This document shows, one piece after another, positions 1-55,367 of a stretch of 64,000 nt of DNA; position 1 is the first letter of the stretch, and each line of letters opens with the position of its first letter. Position numbers and translations under genes: made by a program. The notes beneath the pieces were generated by a model. The model did no database searches. It worked only from the letters and a program-made list of their open reading frames with translations, and was not told where the DNA came from. This DNA comes from Octopus vulgaris (taxonomy: Eukaryota), in contig OX597834.1 in NCBI GenBank assembly GCA_951406725.2, forward strand, positions 13,082,001 through 13,146,000, in the 5' to 3' direction.

Positions 1-139
1 CTACACGGTGCTGACTTGTTATTTTTATTGTGCTAGCCGATTTCTTATTTCTATTGTGCTGACTGACACACGAGCGAGTGCTAAACATTTTCTGACTTTA
101 GGAAAAATATCACGGAAGGTCAGCTTTGAGGCCCAACAT

Positions 140-294
140 TCCATGTGCTTCTATACGATTTTAAAAAATCTAAAAGATCTCTGCATCAAATGTATGACCC
201 TGAGAGGGGAATTTGTTGAATGAAATCATACTTAAATGATCCTACTGCATTTTCATTTATAGAAAGCTAGGACATTTTCCGCATCCCTCGTGTA
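140..294 (+). mobile_element. Mariner-like transposon right end (decayed transposase C-terminus plus terminal inverted repeat)
   Basis: The ORF 8..223 ends FYTILKNLKDLCIKCMTLRGEFVE*, resembling the mariner C-terminal FY..GI.KL..RW.KCI...GDYVE*. It is followed by ttttccgcatccctcgtgta, whose reverse complement resembles a mariner TACGAGGG-type TIR. Confidence 0.55.
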
Positions 295-467
295 TATATT
301 GAAGGAATATATACATCGGCCTTTGAATTTGTTCTCTCCTCTCTTTAATTTTATATTCCTGAAGCTCTATCAGAACGCCACTCGGTTGAGCTGTATATAG
401 TGGTAACTTTTATCACTTAATTCTTCATTATATACACGTGTGTGTATATATATTTCATATATATAGT

Positions 468-625
468 CTTCTATTCTTTTGTTTCAGTCATTTGACTGCG
501 GCCATGTTGATTCTATCGGTCGCTATTGCAGGCCTTGTGCCTATAGTTATGGGGACGTAAACACACCAGCATCGGTTGTGAAGCACACAGGAACACAAAC
601 ATGCATACACACACACGCGCACGCA

Positions 626-665
<40 letters not shown>

Positions 666-820
666 CATTTATACGACGGGCTCCTTTCCCTCTACAAAAT
701 CCACTCACAAGGCTTTGGTCGGCCCGAGGCTATAGTACAAGACACTTGCCCCAGGTGCCACTTAGTGGGTCTGAACCCGGAACCATGTGGTTCGTAAGCA
801 AGCTATTTACCACACGCCTT
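468..820 (-). mobile_element. SINE family A copy (internally deleted)
   Basis: Matches the multi-copy family A (gtttcagtcatttgactgcggccatg ... aaatccactcacaagg ... ttaccacac) and has the internal CA/TA tract. Confidence 0.85.
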
Positions 821-833
821 CGCAAATAATATC

Positions 834-1243
834 TCTCTTTTATTCTTTTTACTTGTTTCAGTCATTTGACTGCGGCCATGCTGGAGCACCGCCTTTAGTC
901 GAGCAAATCGACCCCGGGACTTATTCTTTGTAAGGCCGGTACTTATTCTATCGGTCTCTTTTGCCGAACCGCTAAGTGACGGGGACGTAAACACACCAGC
1001 ATCGGTTGTCAAGCAATGCTAGGGGGGCAAACACAGACACACAAACACACACATACATATACATAAATATATACATATACGATAGGCTTCTTTCAGTTTC
1101 CGTCTATCAAATCCACTCACAAGGCATTGGTCGGCCCGAGGCTATAGTACAAGACACTTGCCCCAGGTGCCACGCAGGGGGACTGAACCCGGAACCATGT
1201 GGTTCGTAAGCAAGCTATTTACCACACAGCCACTCCTACGCCT
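834..1243 (-). mobile_element. SINE family A, full length (tRNA-like head, internal microsatellite, short-repeat tail)
   Basis: On the minus strand it has an A-box-like tggctgtgtgg, a B-box-like ggttcagtcc, then gtggcacctggggcaagtgtc, an internal (TA)/(TG) tract and a gaaacaagtaaaaagaataaaag tail. There are more than 10 copies in the window. Confidence 0.9.
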
Positions 1244-2703
1244 TCGCAAATAATATACGTAGGTATGTATATGAATATGTATATATTTATGCATATAACA
1301 TCAGAGGCAATCCCTATCGATTTGATACAAAGATATCAACATATTTTAAAACATCTAAGTTTTATTTTCATAGTTTTCGACTCCTTCAACCGCTCACTCC
1401 ATTTCATTGCGCGAAACATTGAAGTTGAAATTCAATTTGTCATAAAGGTATTTCGACAATAAAGTACATGAGTACACACATACATAGAATTGCACATACT
1501 CACACGCATACACTCAAACACACTCACTCAATCACACACACACACACACAAACACATATACAAATACATACACACACAAATACTCAGAAACTCACAAACA
1601 CACACATATATAATTCAAATGGAGGTACTTGGATACAATTATGAGCAATGAAGCAATGAAGCTAAATGCCTAGATAGAGATATAAATAAATTTAGGATCT
1701 AAAAATAACGCTAAGTCTTATAAGGTTTTAAAACATGTAAATATATAATATACCCTACTGCTGAAAAGTTTTTGGAAAATGTCCTTTTAATCGAAAATGC
1801 TCTCTCTGTAATATCTAATAAATGATTAAAGAATTTATATTTTATGAAAATATTAAATAAATATATATAATGAAACATGATTAGCTAAAAGTGGTGTAAA
1901 TATTTACTGAAAAGAAAGTTTTAATTCCAATTTTTGCTCGGTTAATGAGGTAAGGATCAGCCTTATGTATTAGCCTTACGTAAAAGGTTATATTTTGATT
2001 TATAATTTCATGTTATCTTTGATTTGGAAGGATCTAGTTTATTGTGGAAATTGAAAGATAATTAGTTATGAGGAAAACAATTTTTACATTGGAAAGAATA
2101 TATTACCATACAGAATATCTCTTCGAAAACAACTTCAATACGCGGTTGCTTAGGTAACATAAATGAAATGGAATTGAGAACAAATATTAGCCCTCTGAAA
2201 TCGAACATCGAGTGTAGATTTAGCAGAACATAGCACATTTTATGCCTATACATCTCTCCGATTACAAGAGAAGTTGTTTACTATGCTATGCAAAAATCCT
2301 ATTCGTCGCCCGCTTCTATCAAATTAAGAATAAAAAGAAAAAGAAATCGGTGGTCCCAAAGCGTGCTCAGCTGTTCATAGTATTTGTGAAATAAGATAAT
2401 AATACAATTTTTGAAGTTGTTAATGCATCTCATCTGTTTCAGTTTTCTGTAGGACGATTATTGCATATTTTGGTGAATTTGAGTATAATACAACAAGCGG
2501 TATTCTAGTGCAACATTTTAATACTGAATTACTGAAATGGAAAAAGAAACTCTTACGTAGACAATCAATAAATAACGAGATAAAATTATGTTATAGTTAC
2601 AAAGATTTCTGTTTTCTAAAATCCGCAGAGTATATTCGATATTTAAAGCAGCATCGTCAGTGAATTTAGCCGAGTCGTTTGCGACAATACTGCATTTGAA
2701 TAA

Positions 2704-3108
2704 GGTGGCGAGCTGGCAGAAACCTTAGCACGCCGGGTGAAATGAATTTTGTCTGCCGTTACGTTCTGTCGTGAAATTCCGCCGAGGTAGACTTTGTCTT
2801 TCATCCTTTCGATGTCGATAAATTAAGTACCAGTTGCGCACTGGCGTCGATGTAATCGACTTAATCCCCTTTTCTGTCCTTGTTTGTCCTCTCTCTGATT
2901 AGTCCCTTCTGGGTAGTAAAGAAATATGTATTTTATCTGCCGTTACGTTCTGAGGTCAAATTCCGCCGAGGTAGACTTTATCTTTCATCCTTTCGGTGTC
3001 GATAAATTAAGTACCAGTTACGCACTGGCGTCGATGTAATCGACTTAATCCCTTTGTCTGTCCTTGTTTGTCCTCTCTATGTTTAGCCCCTTGTGGGCAA
3101 TAAAGAAG
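2704..3108 (+). mobile_element. SINE family B, head-to-tail dimer
   Basis: Head ggtggcgagctggcagaaaccttagc, then the body (aattccgccgaggtagactttg..tttcatcctttcg..gtcgataaattaagtaccag) twice, each copy ending in aaagaa. Confidence 0.88.
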
Positions 3109-3177
3109 CAAAATACTGCATCTGGACACAAATGCAACTGACATATAGGTGAAGTCATAATGATATTCCAATAAATA

Positions 3178-3672
3178 TTTAACGAGGAAATGTTCGTGGA
3201 ATGTTGTGGTTAAGTGAAATCTTAATGATGTCGTGCAGTTATGACGGAAAGGTTATCACTACATAGGTTTCGAAGGACTGCAAAATATTATTTCCATGTG
3301 GTATAGAATATTTATATAGGTGAAGCTTAATATTCGAAAGAGTCAAATAAGATATAAAATATACATTACTAAATATACTTGCATTAGAAACAATACTTAG
3401 GTGACGTATATGTGCGTTTGAACCCATCTAAGTGAATGGTTTATAATGATATTTAAATGTGGTTTTAACATGCAGATGTTAATGGAATATTGTGGTTAAG
3501 TAAAATTTTAATGGAGAGTTCAGTATTTACGGAAAAGTAATTACTATATAAGATTCGTAGAATTGCACAATATTCTTCCCATACGGAATTAAATATTTAT
3601 AGAAGTGAAACTTAATATTTCAAAGAGTCAAGTATGATTTAAATTGTACATTACCAAATATAATTGCATTAA
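3178..3672. repeat. Diverged local tandem duplication, period about 286 bp
   Basis: tgtggttaagt occurs at 3205 and 3491, aaagagtcaa occurs in both units, and ttgcatta occurs at 3379 and 3664. Confidence 0.75.
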
Positions 3673-4046
3673 AAATTAATTATCGATCTGGTCAAAATTT
3701 CTTGCATAAAATCCTTTTTGTGTCCTACATATGAAATACCCATAAACGTATACATTCAGAAAATAGTCGGCCAAGGAATATATATATATATATATACATA
3801 TATACACAGACACGTATGTACGCTTGTGTTTATATATATATATATATATATATAAGTGTGTATGGAGATGTATATACGTTTACATTTAATCGCACAACTA
3901 AATATGTACGTATATACATATCTGTGTGTTTAACTTTATATAATTGCTTTTAATCACGCACTTAAGAATGTATACATACACACACACACATGCACTCATA
4001 CACACACATATATATTTATATATATATATATATATGTGTGTGTGTG

Positions 4047-4090
<44 letters not shown>

Positions 4091-4753
4091 TGTATGTATA
4101 TATAATACGTAGTCATCACACGCATTGAATATAAACACCCCTGAATGAAATAAATGCAAGTGTTGCATTTCGTGCGAAGAAGTAATAAAATGTAGTGTGA
4201 GTATAAAGTACTGGATCTAATTTAATTTCCCTCTTAAAATAGCGTTAGCAATAACAAGTTTGCCTCAATTTAATAATATGTATGTATACAAAGTTTAAAT
4301 TATTAGGGAAGAAAAATATATATAAGGGACAAAGCCATTAACATGAAATTTAGGTTTCAACGATACGGTATGTAAATGATGAGAATCAAATTAAAATATT
4401 CACGTGAGAAACTGTATTAAAATATGATATGAAATTTTGAAAACTCATAAAATATTATACTTGGTTAACTATGAAAAGAATGACTATTCACAAAGTCAAC
4501 AAATTTAGAGTATATCTTGCGTATGAGCTATGATATTGTGGTAGATAATGTTATCTTACAAAATTTAATTGCATTAATTTCTGAAACTCCTAACGGGGAA
4601 TTTGATGACTAAGGCTATATTGCCTAAATTATTTTATCGATATTAAAATTCTTTCACTTCGCCTGTTGTGTCAGATGATGTAGCGTACGCCAACCAGACC
4701 TAAAAGTTAGGGCGTTTAGTGGTGTTTTTCATTGACTTTTATGTATAAACTTA

Positions 4754-6219: not shown

Positions 6220-6446
6220 ACTCTTTTACTCATTTACTCTTTTACTCTTTTACTTGTTTCAGTCATTTGACTGCGGCCATGCTGGAGCACCGCCTTTAGT
6301 CGAGCACATCGACCCCGGGACTTATTCTTTATAAGCCCAGTACTTATTCTATCGGTCTCTTTTGCCTAACCGCTAAGTGACGGGGACGTAAACACACCAG
6401 TATCGGTTGTCAAGCAACGCTAGGGAGACAAACACAGACACACAAG

Positions 6447-6497
<51 letters not shown>

Positions 6498-6653
6498 GAC
6501 AGGCTTCTTTCTGTTTCCGTCTACCAAATCCACTCACAAGGCATTGGTCGGCCCGGGGCTATATTTGAAGACACTTGCCCAAGATGCCACGCAGTGGGAC
6601 AGAACCAGGTGGTTGGTTAGCAAGCTACTTACCACACAGCCACTCCTGCGCCT
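6220..6653 (-). mobile_element. SINE family A
   Basis: Full-length match with a repeated tttactc tail and an internal (TA)n tract. Confidence 0.9.
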
Positions 6654-7023
6654 ATGATAGCGAACAAAACATGATAAATCTCCAAATAAAAGCGTAACAT
6701 CAGACACAAATATTTACAGACTTGTTTAAGAAGAGATAAGAAGAAATATGAGGCAAATTCTAGACGATAAACCGAGACACCAACACAAACTTTATCAATA
6801 TCAAAAGTCAGATTCTTCAGAAGAATGAAAGGAAATTTGAGCCACAGCTGAGCAATGGAAATGAAAATGAAATGAATGAGATACTGAATGCTGACGGGGC
6901 TACTACTTTTGATGATATAGTTTAGGACAACAGTGTTCAAAACAATAGTGGCGTATCCTCAGAGTTTTTCAAATATCGATTGGAATATTTTCAAAATACG
7001 GACAGAAATGTAGCTCCACACTG

Positions 7024-7056
<33 letters not shown>

Positions 7057-7058
<2 letters not shown>

Positions 7059-7332
7059 ACAATTGAGGGTAAAATTAATTAATTAATCAATTTCACCAAG
7101 TGTTCAGTATATAAAAGGACCATTTAAGGCGAATTCAAAATATTACATTATATAATTAGGGCTTAGTAAATTAAATTACTTTGCCACCTCCAAACCTTCG
7201 TGAGCTGTCTGGAGTAAGCATTATCTGAGAGAAATTTTCTTTAAGTAGTAGAAATGCTAAGAAAATTTTTTTGGCTACTATTTCTACTAAGTTCAGTATG
7301 TGGCAAAGTAATTTATTTTACTAAGCCCTAAT

Positions 7333-7340
<8 letters not shown>
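7057..7340. mobile_element. Fold-back repeat family K inserted in (TA)n (PLE-like architecture, no clear ribozyme)
   Basis: Inverted repeat 7147-7187 / 7300-7340, flanked on both sides by (TA)n. A second copy lies at 37576-37768. Confidence 0.7.
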
Positions 7341-7403
<63 letters not shown>

Positions 7404-7470
7404 TGTATGTATGTATGTATGTATGTATGTATGTATGTATATGTATATATATGTATATGTATATGCATAT
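7341..7470. repeat. (TA)n/(TATG)n microsatellite
   Basis: Direct reading. Confidence 0.95.
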
Positions 7471-8239
7471 ATATCTATATATAGGTATCATCGCGTTCGA
7501 AATAGTCTCCCTGTGCAACAATAGTCAGGTTCCAACCTTCCTGCTACTGTATATATATATATATATTCATATAATTATACATATATGAGTCTGCATGTGT
7601 TCGTGTTCATGTGTGTGTGTGCGTGTGAGTGTGTGTATGTGTGTTTGTTTACATATAAAAAATTCTGAAAAAAATCTATCGGAATTAATACAGGGTTGCT
7701 CGAGGCTTGGATTTGGATAAAAATAACTACTTCTTAGTCAATACCAAGCATAAATAAAAAAAAAAAAAACAGTAAATATTTATTAATCTTTTTTCTTTAA
7801 GATAAAGTAAATGGCCACCTTGAGGAAATCCTGACCGATTTTCAATGAGGATGAGAGATAGCTTGACAGAATAAAAAAATATGTTCGGAATTAGCATTCG
7901 GTGAAAGAAAGCCGATTTAAGCACATTTCGTACTTACATTCAATCTAGATAGAGAGGCGTATACGCAAAATATTTTTGAAAATTATGCGTCTAGTGTAAG
8001 TAGTGATTTGTTTGTGAGCGCAAGTGTATATATTTTTTCATAATATACACCTACATCCGAACGTATGTTTTATGTATGTCTGTTATTATGAACGTCTGAT
8101 GATGAAGACGATATATTTTATTTTTATATTAATGAATGTCATAAATATGAATATAACTCGCCGCATCTTTCGGAAATAAAATATGATTGAAGTTGACAAT
8201 CGACTGTTAAAATACGGGCAAAAAGTATTTGTTTAGAAT

Positions 8240-8435
8240 ATTTTCTAAATGTTGTATAAAGCCTGAAATTTTGCGGGAATCGTTGTCCATTGCATCTACG
8301 CCACCACATGAATGATACTTAATTTATCGACAGTGCTACATGGAAAGTAATTTAAACTACGGCGGAATCAGAACGCAGAACGTAAAATCAGAAGAAATGC
8401 CGCGCTTTTGCCAGATGTGCTAACGATTCTGCCAA
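8240..8435 (-). mobile_element. Degraded SINE family B-related copy
   Basis: tacttaatttatcgac...cggcggaatcagaacgcagaacgta...gctaacgattctgcca. Confidence 0.6.
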
Positions 8436-8499
8436 CACATTGCTTTCTCTTTCTCTAAATATAATACACGCAGAAAGTACTTGCAAATTCAGACAAATC

Positions 8500-8611
<112 letters not shown>

Positions 8612-8966
8612 TATATGGATGTATATATTGTTTTCCTCTTTTTTCCATTTCTGTGATATATAGGTTATTTGTGTCTAGGTTAAAGTAGGCATAATAAAAT
8701 ACTTCTGTTCGTTTCTCAGTGCTTTTATGATACCGAACAGCTGTTCCTGCACATAAAGTATTGTGAGAATTTTGGATAACCAATAATCATCCACAATTTT
8801 TTTTATTCATATTTATGTATCTACTATAATTTTTTCTCAAAGATATAGAAGTAAGAGTAGCTTTGTGGTAAGTAGATTGCTTACCAACAACACGGTTCCA
8901 GGGTCAGTCCCACTGCGTGGCACCTTGGTCAATTGTCTTCTGCTATGGCCCACGTCCAACCGAATC

Positions 8967-24461: not shown

Positions 24462-24870
24462 TTCTCTTTACTCTTTTACTTGTTTCATTCATTTGACTGC
24501 GGCCATGCTGGAGCACCGCCTTTAGTCGAGCAAATCGACCCCGGGACTTATTCTTTGTAAGCCCAGTACTTATTCTATCGGTCTCTTTTGCCGAACCGCT
24601 AATGAACGGGGACATAAACACACCAGCATCGGTTGTCAAGCAATGCTGGGGGGACAAACACAGACACACACGCTTATATATATATATATATATATATACA
24701 TATATACGACAGGCTTCTTTCAGTTTCCGTCTACGAAATCCACTCACAAGGCATTGGTCGGCCCGAGGCTATAGCAGAAGACACTTGCCCAAGATGCCAC
24801 GCAGTGGGACTGAACCCGGAATCATGTGGCTGGTTAGCAAGCTACTTACCACACAGCCACTCCTGCGCCT
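24462..24870 (-). mobile_element. SINE family A, full length
   Basis: Full match to the other family A copies. Confidence 0.9.
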
Positions 24871-32589: not shown

Positions 32590-32800
32590 GTGACCTCGTG
32601 TGTACCGTTGTCGATTTTTTCCTCTCTCTTCCCTTATCTGGATCTTTCCTTCTCCTATGTTTCCGACGAAGAGCTCTGCTCGAAACGTTTAAAACCCTCC
32701 TTCCTTCCGTCTTTCCTGAGCGTCCAATAATACTATATTTTTTCCACGTCCTCGCGTTGTTGTGTTTTTTTGTGTTTTCGTGTTTGGATTAACTTTATAT
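32590..32800 (+). mobile_element. PLE-type mini-element related to family D (D')
   Basis: Has the same gagc..gctcgaaacgtt...cctgagcg layout as family D and ends in TA-rich repeat. Confidence 0.7.
32659..32695 (+). ncRNA. Minimal hammerhead motif (CCGACGA core)
   Basis: gttt CCGACGA a gagc-tct-gctc GAAA cg TT t aaaac. Confidence 0.6.
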
Positions 32801-46225: not shown

Positions 46226-46364
46226 GTGTGTGTGTGTGTGTATGTGTGTGTGTTTATATATATATATTATTTATAATATATATTCTATATATATTATACG
46301 AATATAAATAAAACATAAAAAACAGTGTTGGAATTTCTTTGAATAATATATATACATACATACT

Positions 46365-46438
<74 letters not shown>

Positions 46439-46561
46439 GAATTCCAACCTTGTCTGATTTTCACGTTTTATTTACAATCTTATAATGATATATTATAAGA
46501 TAATATATTATAATTGAGTAAAATAAAATGAAATAGTAGAATGTTAAATATTCATTCTGAT

Positions 46562-46606
46562 TGAACTAGTACTTTCATGCATTGAATTCTGCAATCTTCG
46601 GGTTCA
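46562..46606 (-). ncRNA. Minimal hammerhead motif (CCGAAGA core), left arm
   Basis: Minus strand: tgaac CCGAAGA t tgca-gaattcaa-tgca t GAAA gtac TA gttca. Stem III is the palindrome agtact. Confidence 0.72.
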
Positions 46607-47254
46607 TGTAGTAGTGTTGACAGTCATGCTTCACAATTTTTGACTGTAGCAAGATGAGTGATTCTGTGCTATAAATACAGCTGGGTAGGCTCCAGAGTGC
46701 TAGGTTTTGCAAACTGTATTCTGACCAATCAGTGTGTAGTATCACTCAATTACTTAAGCTGATTGGTTGGTTGAGCTGATTGGTTTAGGCATCACGCTTT
46801 GTTGGACAGGTCAAGAGTCCTGTATCTTGACCCTGGCCGAAGCAGCAATTGTTGGGTTATTTTTAGAAATGTTGTAAATATCCTTTGTCAGAGATTTTTA
46901 TATTTTTATATTTCAATTGTCATCATCATCATTGTCAGCACCTTAATTATTGTTGCTAGTGGTGATGGTGGTGGCAATAGAACTTTTAACCCTAAATAAG
47001 ATAATTTTCCTGCTATCTTCGTCTTGATCACCTTTAGTATTGTTGTTGTTGTTAGTGGTCATGGTCGTAGCAGTGGAAGTAATACCTCTAAGTATTATTA
47101 TTATTGCTTATTTAGCTTGGGTTCGAATTTATCAATAAAATTCTTTTCTCTGATTTTCTTCTCGATTTCACTTGGGCTGTGTAATTTGTAGAATGGAAAT
47201 ATATATATTTTCCGACCACATGTTGCTAGGTGGTTACTCATGTTGCTAGGTGGT

Positions 47255-47392
47255 AACCACCTAGCAACATGTGGTCGGAAAATATATATAATATTTCCAT
47301 TCTACAAATTACACAGCCCAAGTGAAATCGAGAGGAAAATCAGAGAAAAGAATTTTATTGATAAATTCGAACCCAAGCTAAATAAGCAATAA
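47255..47392 (+). pseudogene. C-terminal fragment of a PLE GIY-YIG endonuclease domain (mirror copy on the minus strand at about 47104-47241)
   Basis: Translates NHLATCGRKIYIIFPFYKLHSPSEIERKIREKNFIDKFEPKLNKQ*. It carries the conserved H, the R..RE..FI glutamate motif and the terminal P.LN typical of PLE GIY-YIG domains. Confidence 0.75.
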
Positions 47393-47707
47393 TAATAATA
47401 CTTAGAGGTATTACTTCCACTGCTACGACCATGACCACTAACAACAACAACAATACTAAAGGTGATCAAGACGAAGATAGCAGGAAAATTATCTTATTTA
47501 GGGTTAAAAGTTCTATTGCCACCACCATCACCACTAGCAACAATAATTAAGGTGCTGACAATGATGATGATGACAATTGAAATATAAAAATATAAAAATC
47601 TCTGACAAAGGATATTTACAACATTTCTAAAAATAACCCAACAATTGCTGCTTCGGCCAGGGTCAAGATACAGGACTCTTGACCTGTCCAACAAAGCGTG
47701 ATGCCTA

Positions 47708-47826
47708 AACCAATCAGCTCAACCAACCAATCAGCTTAAGTAATTGAGTGATACTACACACTGATTGGTCAGAATACAGTTTGCAAAACCTAGCACTCTG
47801 GAGCCTACCCAGCTGTATTTATAGCA
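47708..47826 (+). promoter_or_regulatory. Candidate pseudo-LTR promoter (CCAAT boxes plus TATA-like element) upstream of the ribozyme
   Basis: aaccaatcag twice, then ctgattgg, then tgtatttatagc about 70 nt before the hammerhead. Mirrored in the left arm. Confidence 0.35.
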
Positions 47827-47886
47827 CAGAATCACTCATCTTGCTACAGTCAAAAATTGTGAAGCATGACTGTCAACACTACTACA

Positions 47887-47931
47887 TGAACCCGAAGATT
47901 GCAGAATTCAATGCATGAAAGTATTAGTTCA
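47887..47931 (+). ncRNA. Minimal hammerhead motif (CCGAAGA core), right arm
   Basis: tgaac CCGAAGA t tgca-gaattcaa-tgca t GAAA gtat TA gttca. Confidence 0.68.
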
Positions 47932-48093
47932 ATCAGAATGAATATTTAACATTCTACTATTTCATTTTATTTTACTCAATTATAATATATTATCTTATAA
48001 TATATCATTATAAGATTGTAAATAAAACGTGAAAATCAGACAAGGTTGGAATTCTTTTTATTAATATATTCTTCTATACACAATCACACACAC

Positions 48094-48133
<40 letters not shown>

Positions 48134-48779
48134 ACGCACGATTTTTACAGATGTATATATGAAAAAAATTGTTAAAACGCACACACATATAGCACATAAA
48201 TGCACTTGTGCGTTTGTTTGTGTGTGTGGTTGTGTGTGTGTGTTTGTATGTGTGTGTGTGTGTGTGTGTAAGATATTTTGCGAGGCGATAGATATGCAAC
48301 CGGTATATAATTATCCTGTCTCCTCGATTATTTTAAACAAGATCATTTTAATTAGAATATTTTGATTAAGCTGAAATTTTCCCAATTCCCTTTCGGCATT
48401 TGATCTTCGCCTTGGAAGGTTTAGTAATCCAAATTGACCCCATTACATTTTGTATTGCTTGCGAAGAGATGGGGAGAAAAACATCAGCTCTCACACATAC
48501 ACATGTCTACACGCACAGGTCAAAACAGACAACAGACATTCCGAGTACCTTACTTACTCCCGAAGTATTATTCAGCCGAGCTCTAATTGAGATGTCCATG
48601 GCACCAAAATGGTTAATTAACTCCGAAACTCTATAACACAGAAACGATTTCTTTAACCCAGTATCTACGAAAATGTGTAGAATACTAGACAGCATGACAT
48701 TATAGAAACACTCACTATCATTAATTTATATATATATATATATATACTTTATTTTAAGCAGCAGAAAATTCAACAAAAT

Positions 48780-48817
48780 CTGTTACTCTGAGTTTCTCGT
48801 TGCCGTTCATCAGACAG
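48780..48817 (-). ncRNA. Minimal hammerhead ribozyme motif, canonical CUGAUGA core (family E)
   Basis: Minus strand: ctgt CTGATGA a-cg-GCAA-cg-a GAAA ctcagag TA acag. Confidence 0.78.
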
Positions 48818-48829
48818 TTTTTGCAAAAA

Positions 48830-48866
48830 CTGTCTGATGAACGGCAACGAAAACTCAGAATAACAG
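48830..48866 (+). ncRNA. Hammerhead motif family E, degenerate arm copy
   Basis: ctgt CTGATGA acggcaacgaaaactcagaa TA acag, with one deletion and one substitution relative to the opposite arm. Confidence 0.5.
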
Positions 48867-48968
48867 ATTTTTTTGAATTTTCTGCTGCTTAAAATAAAGC
48901 ATATTACTCTACCACTGGTATTTGAGTACTCTTTTTTCCACCTTGTTTCACATTTATGTGTTTACTCC

Positions 48969-49007
<39 letters not shown>

Positions 49008-49045
49008 AGAATGGAGTTGAACGACGAAATAACAAAATTCCTTTA

Positions 49046-49133
49046 TTTTCGACATATGTTTCGAAGGCTGCATATTCCTAATTGCGAAGGAATAAGGATT
49101 GGATTATATTATGCCGCTTTCTCATCAGGAAAA
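49046..49133 (-). ncRNA. Hammerhead motif family F (CUGAUGA, long stem II)
   Basis: Minus strand: ttttc CTGATGA gaaagcggcata...tatgcagccttc GAAA catatg TC gaaaa. Confidence 0.78.
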
Positions 49134-49248
49134 GCAAGGAACTTATGTCAACATCAAGATGCACCAAAAACGTTTAGATGACTGCTCACGCGGAGCCCAT
49201 AGTGATAAAAAATGTTTGTGCATCTTGATGTTGACATAAGTACCTTGC

Positions 49249-49331
49249 TTTTCCTGAGGAGAAAGCGGCATAATATACTCTTTATTCCTTCGCAAATAGG
49301 AATATGCAGCCTTCGAAACATATGTCGAAAA
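49249..49331 (+). ncRNA. Hammerhead motif family F (CUGAGGA, long stem II)
   Basis: ttttc CTGAGGA gaaagcggcata...tatgcagccttc GAAA catatg TC gaaaa. GUC cleavage triplet, and stem III is the palindrome acatatgt. Confidence 0.78.
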
Positions 49332-51493
49332 TAAAGGAATTTTGTTAATTCGTCGTTGAACTCTATTCTTTCATATATTTATATTTAAAAAATATATGCA
49401 AATTTCCACACGAAAGCACGTAACTTCAAACGTGTTTTCTCTGATGTGAATTTGCTACCCAGGTATCGGTTAACCGAATTATCCATAACAAGATAATTCA
49501 TTCAACTACTCAAATATATATATATATAAATAACAGTAAGATATTTATGAGAGTAATAATATTGTAATGTACTTGAGATTTAACATTAATAATTGCAGTT
49601 TATTATAAAATAATTAGTATCGTGGAATGTTTGTTCAATCATCAATCTTTATAAAACGACACGTAATATTTTGTAATGTAAGTAATTCGTCTTGATAAGC
49701 TTTTATAATAAAAGATATAGAAAATATTTAATGGAATACGGAACAATGTTGCATTTGTTTTATTAATGTTTTATAATTGTGTTTATATATTTGAGTGAAA
49801 ATTAATATTTGATGCTTAACAGTTGATTATAAGTGTATTTATGAGTAGATATTTTCTTAATGTGTTTTTCTTGATATTCCACATATGTGGCGAATTAGAG
49901 AATAATTATTATAGTAGGATACATAGACAATTTATCGATCGTGTTTAGATAAACAGATCCTGTGTGATTTCATAGAATAATGGAATGTTTCATTTCCATA
50001 TTCCCTAATGTTAGTTTGAGGAACATTTGATTTATATAATAAAGGGTTAAAGCGAGAAACGAGGTGTATATGTTAGAATAACGCCGGGAAAGAATGATTT
50101 TAATATAAACCTATAGAACGATGACTTGATAACTGTCAGCTTACGTTGGATGGAAGGATTTATTTACCTAAGGATTCTGCGAATACCTGAATATTATATT
50201 AGATAATACATAGGTATATCTCAAAGGTATAAAGGTTAACATAAATTTCAATTACATAGTAATTACATGAAATCTTACCATTTATTGAATAGTGTAAATG
50301 GACAGAAGACCTGATGATAAGAAAAGCTATAAATTGATGGCTCCGTATTGCATTAAATATTTTGGTTACTGTACGACCTAAGATTCATTCTCACTCTAAA
50401 CCCTACAACCTTTTGGTCCAACAGTAATTGTTGCTTTTCAACGCCTTGTCATACACAGATTTTCAGCCACTATGCTTCCTTAGGTCGTCCGTCAAATGAC
50501 CGTTCTACCCTTAAGATTGGATTAAATTGCTCTTTCATCAACTGATACGTTATTAGCTAATGCAGATCATCCTTTCAGGAAAATATTGTACATTCATAAA
50601 CTGCAAATAGAGGTTTCGAATTTTAGCAGTTTCGGAGAAGGGCATGAGTCAGTTACATATACATCATTGCTAAATTATTTCCTATTTTATTGACACCGAA
50701 AGATGAAAGACGAAGTCAAACTCAGCGAATTTGTAACACGCTATATATATTTTTCTTTTTTTTTTAAAACGGACGAAATGCCGTTAAACTTGTTGTCCGG
50801 TGTGCTAGCTTGCAACTTTTAAGAATGAGATGCTTACAATACCTACGGCAAAATGCAAACATAACTACACAGTCTTTAAAATATTATCACATCAAAAAGC
50901 ATCAATGGTCAGGGTATGTATTTGAAGTAAAATACACGAAAGAACTCTAAGTTATGTAAAAATTGCGGATATGAGAAAAGTTGTACTGTAGATCTGAGAC
51001 GTGAAGCACGATTCTTTTTCACTATAGGCATAGCTATCCTGTCATTGATACCAAAGTATATTTAGCCATACAAAAACAATGTATCTAAAGTTATATTTAC
51101 TTAAAACAAGAAATAATTTGCTGTAAGAATACGATACGTTTGCTCAGATATTGCTATATAATGCATTGATAAAATGTGGAAACAGTTTCCGAACCCACAT
51201 CTCGCATTATCTTATCCAACTTCATAAGTTTTGAGCATGTTTAGTGTTTATTTGAATTTGCTATATATGGCGGAATGCTGAATTTTTTTAAGTACTTTGC
51301 GAGGAAGCAACAAATGTAGGATTATAGGGGGACAAAAAGAGAAATAATTGAATGATATCATCCTAAAGTTATCGATCGTCAAACAATCGAAAACTTCAAT
51401 TCTTTCACTTTATTGAAAAAAAAAACATTCCAAGTTTTTCTCTATTAATGTAATAATCAAACAGCCTTGTACTCACTGTAGATAAACATACTT

Positions 51494-54161: not shown

Positions 54162-54535
54162 CTCTCTCTCTTTACTCTTTTACTTGTTTCAGTCATTTGA
54201 CTGCGGCCGCCTTTAGTCGGGCAAATCGACCCCGGGACTTATTCTATCGGTCTCTCTTTTGCCGAACCGCTAGATGACGGGGACGTAGATACACCAGCAT
54301 CGGTTGTCAAGCCATGCTAGGGAGACAAACACAGACACACACACATAATACATAAATATATATATACATATATACGACAGGCTTCTTTCAGTTTCCGTCA
54401 ACCAAATCCACTCACAAGGCATTGGTCGGCCCGAGGCTATAGTAGAAGACACTTGCCCAAGGTGCCACGCAGTGGGACTGAACCTGGAACCATGTGGTTG
54501 GTTAGCAAGGTACTTACCCCACAGCCCTCCTGCGC
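54162..54535 (-). mobile_element. SINE family A (two small deletions)
   Basis: Match to family A. Confidence 0.9.
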
Positions 54536-54976: not shown

Positions 54977-55367
54977 TCTTACTTGTTTCAGTCATTTGAT
55001 TGCGGCCATGCTGGAGCACCGCCTTTAATCGAGCAACTCAGCCCCGGGACTTATTCTTTGTAAGCCTAGTACTTACTCTACCGGTATCTTTTGACGAACC
55101 GCTAAGTAACGGGGACATAAACACACCAGCATCGGTTGTCAAGCGATGTTAGATGGAACAAAGAGAGACACACAAACATATACACACACGCATATATGTA
55201 TATATACATACATATATACGACGGGCTTCTTTCAGTTTCCGTCTACCAAATCCACTCACAAGGCTTTGGTCGGCCTGAGGCTATAGTAGAAGACACTTGC
55301 CCAAGGTGCCACGCAGTGGGACTGAACCCGGAACCACGTGGTTGGTAAACAAGCTACTTACCACACA
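54977..55367 (-). mobile_element. SINE family A
   Basis: Match to family A. Confidence 0.9.

What the first reader, a model, noticed from the sequence alone, without database searches (positions are those of the whole stretch)
46435..48058. 1.6-kb near-perfect palindrome is a Penelope-like element end: endonuclease tail, UTR and ribozyme in each arm
Reading outward from the centre, each arm encodes NHLATCG..IFPFYK...REKNFIDKFEPKLN* (right arm; the left arm lacks one codon and has one substitution), then about 500 nt of UTR, a CCGAAGA hammerhead and an aataaa near the end. This physically links the minimal hammerheads to a GIY-YIG-encoding PLE and anchors the interpretation of the smaller elements. 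The few arm differences indicate a real and fairly recent structure. Such spacer-less palindromes are usually unstable.
Basis: partly seen in the sequence, partly recalled or inferred. Interest (0 to 1): 0.75.

Follow-up and report, generated by a model that had tools for sequence, protein, structure and literature searches.

The report
Head-to-head Penelope retrotransposon tail insertion
This 1.6-kb mirror-image stretch is two cut-short tail ends of a young, high-copy Penelope-type jumping gene joined head to head inside a TA repeat, a known layout, but in 68 of 69 such structures exactly one arm carries a short extra tail, which likely means that both broken ends of the target DNA each started their own copy of the element's RNA.

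Summary
The palindrome is real, and it is a known kind of structure. Both arms are the 5'-truncated 3' end of a young 4,271-bp Penelope-like element (Neptune-type linker; ORF1, then RT plus GIY-YIG ORF2 in the -1 frame). A 24-mer from that end occurs 1,683 times in this genome. Each arm holds the last 44-45 endonuclease residues, a promoter-like region and a minimal hammerhead motif (core U4C in young copies, canonical in older ones).

Inverted copies are ordinary here: at least 24 of 73 loci examined. It is not spacer-less: a 12-nt templated insert sits at the centre.

The informative point is family-wide. In 68 of 69 inverted pairs one arm has the tail and the other does not; either arm may be the longer; joints show 1-3 nt microhomology. 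This best fits two target-primed cDNAs started at two fixed RNA sites and joined end to end (inferred). Fold-back of one cDNA fits worse but is not excluded.

No read run held this locus, so reads could not confirm it. This scan noted the same end rule earlier in other families of this genome.

The parts
46435..47240 (-). Left arm: 5'-truncated 3' end of the element (unit positions 3426-4234), ending at the short site, no tail
   Evidence: blastn to one natural full copy (L031 unit), 99.5%; arm alignment
47241..47252 (.). 12-nt templated insert at the head-to-head joint; repeats adjacent left-arm sequence and makes a perfect inner hairpin around 47255
   Evidence: junction unique in the genome
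47253..48095 (+). Right arm: 5'-truncated 3' end of the element (unit positions 3429-4271), with tail
   Evidence: blastn 99.9%
47255..47392 (+). Last 45 codons and stop of ORF2 (C-terminal part of the GIY-YIG endonuclease); no start codon, not a gene
   Evidence: identical to ORF2 residues 731-775; GIY-YIG Pfam match on ORF2 687-773
47101..47235 (-). Mirror copy of the ORF2 end, 44 codons and stop (one Ile codon lost, R>K)
47710..47856 (+). Promoter-like region: three CCAAT-type boxes, TATA-like box 47816-47824, inferred transcription start at 47846 (mirror 46637-46783 on -)
   Evidence: motifs; 22 of 112 copy 5' ends lie at unit 4020-4028, 30 nt behind the TATA-like box; no RNA data
47887..47931 (+). 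Minimal type I hammerhead motif, core CCGAAGA (U4C); this copy has a C>T change that weakens the palindromic helix III
   Evidence: descriptor scan; helix III self-dimer -2.2 versus -6.8 kcal/mol; older subfamily has CTGAAGA
46562..46606 (-). Mirror hammerhead motif with intact palindromic helix III
48021..48026 (+). AATAAA (mirror 46467-46472 on -); not where copies end
48058..48069 (+). Short 3' end site (AT tract) of the family
   Evidence: 341 exact genomic matches end here; also the end of contigs in two public runs
48070..48095 (+). PLE 'tail' (26 unique nt, about 40 with the AT tract), present on the right arm only
   Evidence: 582 exact genomic matches read into it, tandem joints included
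46368..46434 (.). (TA)n target, left flank
   Evidence: sequence
48096..48130 (.). (TA)n target, right flank; element end and any target duplication cannot be separated from it
   Evidence: sequence
46271..46391 (+). Decayed 3' end of an older relative; the young insertion landed in its terminal (TA)n
   Evidence: 72-73% identity to unit 4156-4285, E 1e-10

Best explanation
The palindrome is a single recent insertion of a Penelope-like retrotransposon into a (TA)n repeat, made of two 5'-truncated copies of the element's 3' end joined head to head, and it likely arose when both cut ends of the target primed reverse transcription, one at the tail site and one at the short site of probably the same RNA, after which the two cDNA ends were likely joined by microhomology. 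SHOWN: the arms match a 4,271-bp unit encoding RT and GIY-YIG; target is (TA)n on both sides; one tail end and one short end in 68 of 69 pairs; 1-6 nt microhomology or templated inserts at the joints. FROM THE LITERATURE: a PLE protein cuts and extends both target strands and starts at two RNA sites that bound the tail (PMC11167929). INFERRED: the two start sites are used one each in the same event (later primer displacing the earlier cDNA, or an asymmetric dimer); here both cDNAs stopped within 3 nt of each other (unit 3426 and 3429); one end primed on the other, copied 14 nt, slipped and re-paired by 2 nt, giving the 12-nt insert. The structure encodes no protein; its two outward-facing promoter-like regions could at most yield short hammerhead-bearing RNAs (untested).
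For: Parent element and tandem arrays at 4,271-bp spacing. 1,683 exact 3' 24-mers. Of the 73 loci behind the first 100 listed matches, 20 are head-to-head by the list alone and 24 after some singles were fetched (counted by hand). End rule: 37 of 37 readable pairs, 2 of 2, 29 of 30; 49% mixed pairs expected if ends were chosen independently, P about 2e-20; the 21 pairs picked without regard to end type give 21 of 21, P 3e-7. No short/short pair, although 44 of 106 non-inverted clusters end short. Short arm reaches further 5' in 23 of 38 pairs, tail arm in 14, equal in 1, so neither arm is a plain copy of the other. Microhomology of 2 nt or more in 17 of 30 insert-free joints against 16% by chance. 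At the recurrent joint at the inferred RNA 5' end, both cDNAs end in a self-complementary 5-mer with a central T-T mismatch; the centre base comes from the tail arm in 14 and from the short arm in 8 of 22 clean joints, as pairing between two molecules predicts. Truncation points within 10 nt away from that hotspot: 2 of 20 without this locus, 0.25 expected, P 0.02. Arms agree at a common polymorphism in 32 of 32 pairs.
Against: One tail/tail pair (L126). Both arms often share rare substitutions (11 in 24.5 kb of overlap, against 14 arm-private); for three tested variants no young sibling with the same haplotype was found, which also fits one cDNA copied twice or gene conversion. Non-inverted short-ended copies keep no inverted tail remnant at their 5' joint (0 of 17), so nothing shows that every insertion starts with two primers. 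Most long pairs have widely different truncation points (Spearman 0.22, P 0.33, n=21), so 'same RNA' rests on few cases. In PMC11167929 start-site use did not differ by strand and coupling was not tested. No raw reads confirm this locus. All counts come from one assembly and mostly its first contigs.
Confidence: 0.68

Rival explanations
1. One cDNA primed at the tail site folds back and is copied into the second arm, which is resolved at the short AT site; later central deletions make the arms unequal.
For: Shared rare variants in both arms without young siblings; near-coincident truncation here and in 2 of 20 other pairs; arm-private changes lean to the short arm, 9 versus 5, not significant (P 0.42). 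Central revision of long palindromes is known (recalled).
Against: Short-primed copies are 44 of 106 non-inverted clusters, yet 0 of 69 pairs are short/short. The short arm is the longer one in 23 of 38 pairs, by up to 3.3 kb or more than a unit. In 8 of 22 hotspot joints the short arm keeps the full 5' end, so it would be the first strand, but it lacks the tail that the other arm has.
Confidence: 0.2
2. Self-priming on an antisense transcript produces the head-to-head palindrome (proposed in PMC3846280).
For: Palindromes at the inverted joint are seen here too; the paper proposes it for rotifer Penelope elements (passages).
Against: Joints lie all along the unit (positions 90 to 4164) with 1-3 nt microhomology; 5' ends pile up 30 nt behind a sense-strand TATA-like box; the model does not explain one tail end plus one short end.
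Confidence: 0.05
3. Assembly or chimeric-read artefact.
For: None of 20 holder runs has more than 0.61 of the sampled words, about the share expected from family-wide words alone (hand estimate); the one read laying showed no strand-switch joint.
Against: A fold-back read mirrors flanks and ends; here flanks differ, the two ends are different fixed sites, the arms have private changes, the joint has a templated insert, and the same end rule holds in about 90%-identical older pairs.
Confidence: 0.03
4. Two independent insertions into the same microsatellite, or a DNA-level inverted duplication of one inserted copy.
For: (TA)n tracts are re-used as targets (older relative beside the left arm).
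Against: No TA between the arms; 5' ends abut; arms concordant in 32 of 32 pairs; a DNA duplication would copy the same 3' end and flank.
Confidence: 0.03

Closest known systems
Endonuclease-positive Penelope-like elements, inverted 5'-truncated insertions with tail (Craig et al. 2021, PMC8557442; Arkhipova et al. 2013, PMC3846280)
   Same: RT plus C-terminal GIY-YIG; partial tandems; inverted 5'-truncated copy at the 5' end; 30-40 bp tail at one end; hammerhead in the pLTR; microsatellite targets hiding target duplications.
   Different: The papers call the tail optional and give no count in the passages read; here it is on exactly one arm in 68 of 69 pairs. This locus has no full ORF between the arms.
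Neptune-type PLEs (CX2-5CxxC linker; two-ORF Neptune of killifish, PMC12602865)
   Same: Linker CNDSRCGTC before the nuclease; GxKF and DKG motifs; (TA)n targeting; separate ORF1 and ORF2.
   Different: ORF1 (430 aa) overlaps ORF2 by 94 nt in the -1 frame at a T-TTT-TTT heptamer; Neptune versus Nematis was not settled by a tree.
PAc Poseidon element of the green anole in vitro (Frangieh et al. 2024, PMC11167929)
   Same: Two reverse-transcription start sites that bound the tail; both target strands cut and extended; hammerhead cleavage not needed (0 of 112 5' ends at the cleavage site here).
   Different: PAc starts at RNA sites not homologous to the target, inside the ORF start; here both ends coincide with AT tracts that match the (TA)n target, upstream of ORF1. 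Coupling of the two sites in one event was not examined there.
Minimal type I hammerheads of metazoan PLEs (Cervera and de la Pena 2014, PMC4209133)
   Same: Short helix I, unpaired base before helix II, palindromic short helix III suited to dimers; pairs on opposite strands 100-700 bp apart were reported there.
   Different: Young copies carry U4C in the core; helix II is 4 bp.
LINE-1 twin priming (recalled)
   Same: Two target 3' ends prime on one RNA and give an inverted 5' part.
   Different: In L1 the second primer is internal at variable sites and the two cDNAs cover different RNA parts; here both start at fixed sites about 40 nt apart and copy the same region.

Membership tests
EN+ Penelope-like element | RT followed by C-terminal GIY-YIG endonuclease in the parent | tested here: met
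   ORF2 775 aa: RVT_1 E 1.9e-6 (28.2 bits, just under the 29.6 cut-off), GIY-YIG 24.8 bits (cut-off 22.6) at 687-773; 617 homologues at E<=1e-50
EN+ Penelope-like element | Partial tandem copies forming pseudo-LTRs | tested here: met
   4,271-bp spacing; truncated copy precedes full copy in L031, L033, L079
EN+ Penelope-like element | Inverted 5'-truncated copy at the 5' end | tested here: met
   this locus and at least 24 of 73 loci
EN+ Penelope-like element | 30-40 nt tail at one end only | tested here: met
   68 of 69 pairs
EN+ Penelope-like element | Target-site duplication | tested here: inconclusive
   both flanks are (TA)n
EN+ Penelope-like element | RT groups with PLE RTs in a tree | not tested
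   no named PLE reference sequences came from the tools
Neptune/Nematis clades | CX2-5CxxC linker between RT and EN | tested here: met
   ORF2 650-658; also in 117 of the 120 listed homologues
Neptune/Nematis clades | [quoted passage not shown] | tested here: met
   CPNC inside the core and two downstream histidines, read by eye
Neptune clade | ORF1 set apart by a frameshift with a pseudoknot (optional per Fig. 1 legend of PMC8557442; that it applies to Neptune is recalled) | tested here: inconclusive
   -1 overlap identical in all 17 hits (some loci overlap; one later copy, L101, has an extra T); IHF(F/L) kept in 3 of 3 aligned ORF1 homologues; no strong downstream structure (-6.9 kcal/mol); no independent read check
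Neptune clade | Placement apart from Nematis in an RT tree | not tested
   no labelled references
Hydra clade | DKT and RWK motifs, CxCX5C linker, no CCHH, single short ORF | tested here: not met
   DKG, GLKF, CX4CxxC and CCHH present
Naiad/Chlamys clades | Endonuclease N-terminal to RT | tested here: not met
   EN is C-terminal
Minimal type I hammerhead | Helices I-III around the core, NUH site, palindromic helix III | tested here: met
   no compensatory changes seen among copies
Minimal type I hammerhead | Canonical CUGANGA core | tested here: not met
   CCGAAGA in 166 and CTGAAGA in 38 motif hits in the fetched loci (some loci overlap), the latter almost all on the older background; U4C is a known, weaker natural variant (PMC3088659 passage)
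Minimal type I hammerhead | Self-cleavage | not testable with these tools
   needs an assay
Non-LTR retrozyme | Non-coding tandem monomers without an ORF | tested here: not met
   arms include the ORF2 end and derive from an autonomous unit

The most novel reading that the evidence does not exclude
Penelope-like elements integrate by an obligatory double priming: a dimer holds one RNA and uses its two fixed start sites once each, one per target strand; inverted repeats arise when both cDNAs survive and pair by their 3' ends (a self-complementary 5-mer at the RNA start drives a recurrent joint), and plain copies arise when one is lost. The latest expansion wave spread with a weakened U4C hammerhead, so cleavage is dispensable for, or slows, amplification.
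Probability: 0.4. Interest if true: 0.7.

Novelty: new member of a known kind. Interest (0 to 1): 0.42.

Why it matters
The locus itself is ordinary transposon debris. The family matters because PMC8557442 names the formation of PLE tandem/inverted structures as unresolved, and PMC11167929 found two start sites and extension of both strands without linking them. A near-identical family with intact ORFs, hundreds of two-ended insertions, a 68-of-69 end rule and a recurrent joint gives sharp predictions (start-site coupling, same-RNA origin, joint sequence) that the existing in vitro assay can test. It also shows that this element seeds many long palindromes in the genome, which repeat annotation and assembly must expect.

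Tried and rejected
Rfam scan: only sub-threshold microRNA-like matches among the 150 rows shown of 264; no hammerhead row. MFE folding of the motif: not significant. Pfam on the 45-aa peptide and on ORF1: no hit. Read support: 20 holder runs reach at most 0.61 of the words; on the right arm one raw run gave 0 reads and another 6, and contigs of two runs confirmed the family and the short end but listed no inversion joint, which is no test. An independent read check of the ORF1/ORF2 overlap was not obtained, so that overlap rests on the assembly and on homologue conservation.

Tests whether the arms came from different source copies: the left-arm substitution is unique; the right-arm one occurs 9 times, the 7 other loci fetched all being older-subfamily copies, so both look private. 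Shared-variant test on L034 and L058: the other genomic hits were older copies or shared only one variant, which does not decide between models. Search for an inverted tail remnant beside short-ended single copies: 0 of 17. Hammerhead-cleaved RNA as template: 0 of 112 5' ends at 4098-4108.

The loose hotspot pattern has a high control count (109 versus 76), so only fetched loci were used: of 39 fetched, 2 were not family members and 7 had an unreadable arm; these 9 were dropped before the 29-of-30 count. In one search, 2 of 39 pairs were cut by the locus edge and dropped. The first permutation (3 of 21, P 0.003) included this locus, which was picked for its symmetry; it was redone without it. 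Rejected readings: MITE (arms are whole mirrored 3' ends of variable length), regulatory RNA switch (ribozymes on opposite strands, no sign of conservation tested), AATAAA as the terminus.

Full report
OBSERVATION. The window holds an inverted repeat of about 800-bp arms. Aligned arm to arm, the inside differences are a 3-nt deletion and a G>A change in the left arm and a C>T change in the right arm, plus a 4-nt deletion at the left outer end. Reading outward, each arm encodes NHLATCGRKIYI(I)FPFYK...FEPKLNKQ*. The centre is not a clean mirror: the left arm stops at 47240, the right starts at 47253, and the 12 nt between repeat adjacent left-arm sequence. This joint occurs once in the genome. 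The right arm continues as element sequence to 48095; the left arm lacks that piece. Both flanks are (TA)n; the left one is the end of an older, 72%-identical relative.

PARENT ELEMENT. The right arm matches many genomic places at about 100% (41 rows listed from 40 scored of 1,466 candidates), some at 4,271-bp spacing. One full unit (L031:5218-9488) has ORF1 (430 aa) and, overlapping it in the -1 frame, ORF2 (775 aa stop to stop). ORF2 matches RVT_1 (E 1.9e-6, just under the cut-off) and GIY-YIG (above the cut-off, residues 687-773); ORF1 and the 45-aa peptide alone match nothing. The peptide is the last 45 residues of ORF2. ORF2 has GLKF, DKG, a CX4CxxC linker and the CCHH residues, which fits Neptune/Nematis and not Hydra or Naiad. 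The eukaryote-named rows among its 120 listed homologues are bivalve proteins. Three ORF1 homologues keep IHF(L) where this element has its T-TTT-TTT heptamer; a programmed -1 frameshift is inferred, with no strong downstream structure found. A 24-mer near the 3' end occurs 1,683 times. G000 is a 2.8-Gb, microsatellite-rich genome; an earlier scan note calls it octopus, which I did not check.

ANATOMY OF THE ARM. After the stop come about 320 nt, three CCAAT-type boxes, a TATA-like box (47816), a hammerhead motif (47887-47931), AATAAA (48021), a short end site (48069) and the tail (48070-48095). Of 112 copy 5' ends, 22 lie at unit 4020-4028, 30 nt behind the TATA-like box, which I read as the RNA start (inferred); none lies at the hammerhead cleavage site. 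The motif has the anatomy of the minimal PLE hammerheads of PMC4209133, with a palindromic helix III. Its core is CCGAAGA in young copies and canonical CTGAAGA in the older subfamily. That supports the identification and suggests weakened activity, since U4C lowers activity in vitro (PMC3088659). Rfam and folding energy give no support of their own. The other hammerhead-bearing repeats of the window are not of this family.

THE PALINDROME IS A COMMON PRODUCT. The first 100 listed 24-mer matches fall into 73 loci; 20 are head-to-head by the list and at least 24 after fetching some singles (hand count). Copies end either at the short site (341 exact matches) or run into the tail (582, tandem joints included); non-inverted clusters are 62 tail and 44 short. 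Among inverted pairs with both ends readable, 37 of 37, 2 of 2 and 29 of 30 have one of each; the exception is tail/tail. Independent choice predicts 49% (P about 2e-20; 21 of 21 in the subset chosen blind to end type, P 3e-7). Eleven of the 69 pairs were picked from the two end-pattern lists, where same-type pairs would have shown equally and did not (0 of 23 clusters). Two pairs and 9 of 39 loci were dropped as cut, unreadable or unrelated.

MECHANISM. Either arm may reach further 5' (short 23, tail 14, equal 1 of 38). Joints are microhomology of 1-6 nt (27), blunt (3) or inserts (8); 2 nt or more occurs in 17 of 30 against 16% by chance. At the recurrent joint at the inferred RNA start, each cDNA ends in ACTGT, which pairs with a second copy of itself around a T-T mismatch; the surviving centre base comes from the tail arm in 14 and the short arm in 8 of 22 clean cases. 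These facts fit two cDNAs, each primed by one target end at one of two fixed sites and joined 3' to 3'. PMC11167929 shows in vitro that a PLE protein cuts and extends both strands and starts at two sites bounding the tail; that the sites are used one each per event is my inference. At this locus the two cDNAs ended 3 nt apart, and the insert is what iterative priming of one end on the other would leave. Near-coincident ends away from the hotspot (2 of 20 other pairs, P 0.02, one of them only modulo the unit length) and 32 of 32 concordant polymorphic sites lean to one RNA, weakly.

AGAINST. Arms share rare variants (11 in 24.5 kb) with no young sibling found for three tested; fold-back of one cDNA, gene conversion, polishing, or source copies absent from this assembly all explain that. 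Single short-ended copies keep no inverted remnant (0 of 17) and mostly join (TA)n directly (33 of 36 singles of both kinds). Reads could not test the locus: no holder run exceeds 0.61 of the words, and the one laying confirmed only the family and the short end in two runs' contigs. An artefact is still unlikely, because flanks, ends and private changes differ between the arms and the rule holds in older pairs.

WHAT IS KNOWN. Inverted 5'-truncated copies, a 30-40 bp tail at one end and (TA)n targets are described (PMC8557442, PMC3846280, PMC8969392); opposite-strand hammerhead pairs too (PMC4209133); a two-ORF Neptune is described (PMC12602865). PMC8557442 lists the formation of inverted structures as open; PMC3846280 proposes antisense self-priming. 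Seven literature searches showed no paper that counts the end rule or states the two-primer model for PLEs; the library lacks most subscription papers, including Arkhipova 2006 and Evgen'ev and Arkhipova 2005, and I opened no supplements or figures, where such counts may stand. What I saw: PMC8557442 passages and section 11; PMC11167929 parts 1-3 of 4; PMC4209133 parts 1-2 of 4; passages of PMC3846280, PMC12602865, PMC8969392, PMC3088659, PMC13282606; abstract and outline of 10.64898/2026.07.22.740005. L1 twin priming and palindrome revision are recalled. Earlier notes of this scan report the same short/long rule and a twin-priming reading for other families in this genome; I had seen the rule before that look-up, and those notes are not independent support.

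VERDICT. A real, young, head-to-head insertion of a Neptune-type Penelope-like element: a new member of a known kind. Identity as a PLE inverted insertion is near certain; the two-primer mechanism is about 0.68. Interest 0.42, carried by the testable family-wide rule rather than by this locus.

Noticed in passing
window 48760-48900: A second small palindrome between (TA)n tracts with a CTGATGA...GAAA hammerhead-like motif on each strand; no nucleotide similarity to the 4,271-bp unit.
   Followed up: partly
window 49000-49370: A third palindrome of about 360 bp with CTGAGGA/CTGATGA cores and a long helix II; a different family.
   Followed up: partly
window 32655-32700: Hammerhead-like motif with a CCGACGA core (also U4C) in an unrelated repeat.
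   Followed up: no
L031:5259-6551 and 6458-8785: ORF1 (430 aa, no Pfam hit, 4 homologues) overlaps ORF2 in the -1 frame at a T-TTT-TTT heptamer; three homologues keep IHF(L) and GxQxPE at the same place, suggesting a conserved programmed frameshift.
   Followed up: partly
family-wide, unit position 4069: The young subfamily carries the U4C hammerhead core, the older one the canonical core.
   Followed up: partly
L034:1465-8232: Both arms of a 6.8-kb inverted insertion share the same premature stop in ORF2; the only other exact match is an older, diverged copy.
   Followed up: partly
L121-L159: Many copies are promoter-to-tail stubs of 220-260 nt, often head to head: a SINE-like non-coding by-product of the element.
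   Followed up: partly
window 47837-47913, run X24: Six raw reads of one run lie only here and show 'goes back' joints of 54 and 77 nt; unexplained, possibly library artefact.
   Followed up: no
proteins P0010, P0013, P0072, P0084: Close ORF2 homologues are labelled as proteins of bacterial gill symbionts of bivalves; probably host transposon sequence in those assemblies (inference).
   Followed up: no
window 614-816, 1026-1228, 6443-6645, 24653-24855, 54321-54523, 55165-55367: A dispersed 200-bp repeat family, 72-88% alike.
   Followed up: no
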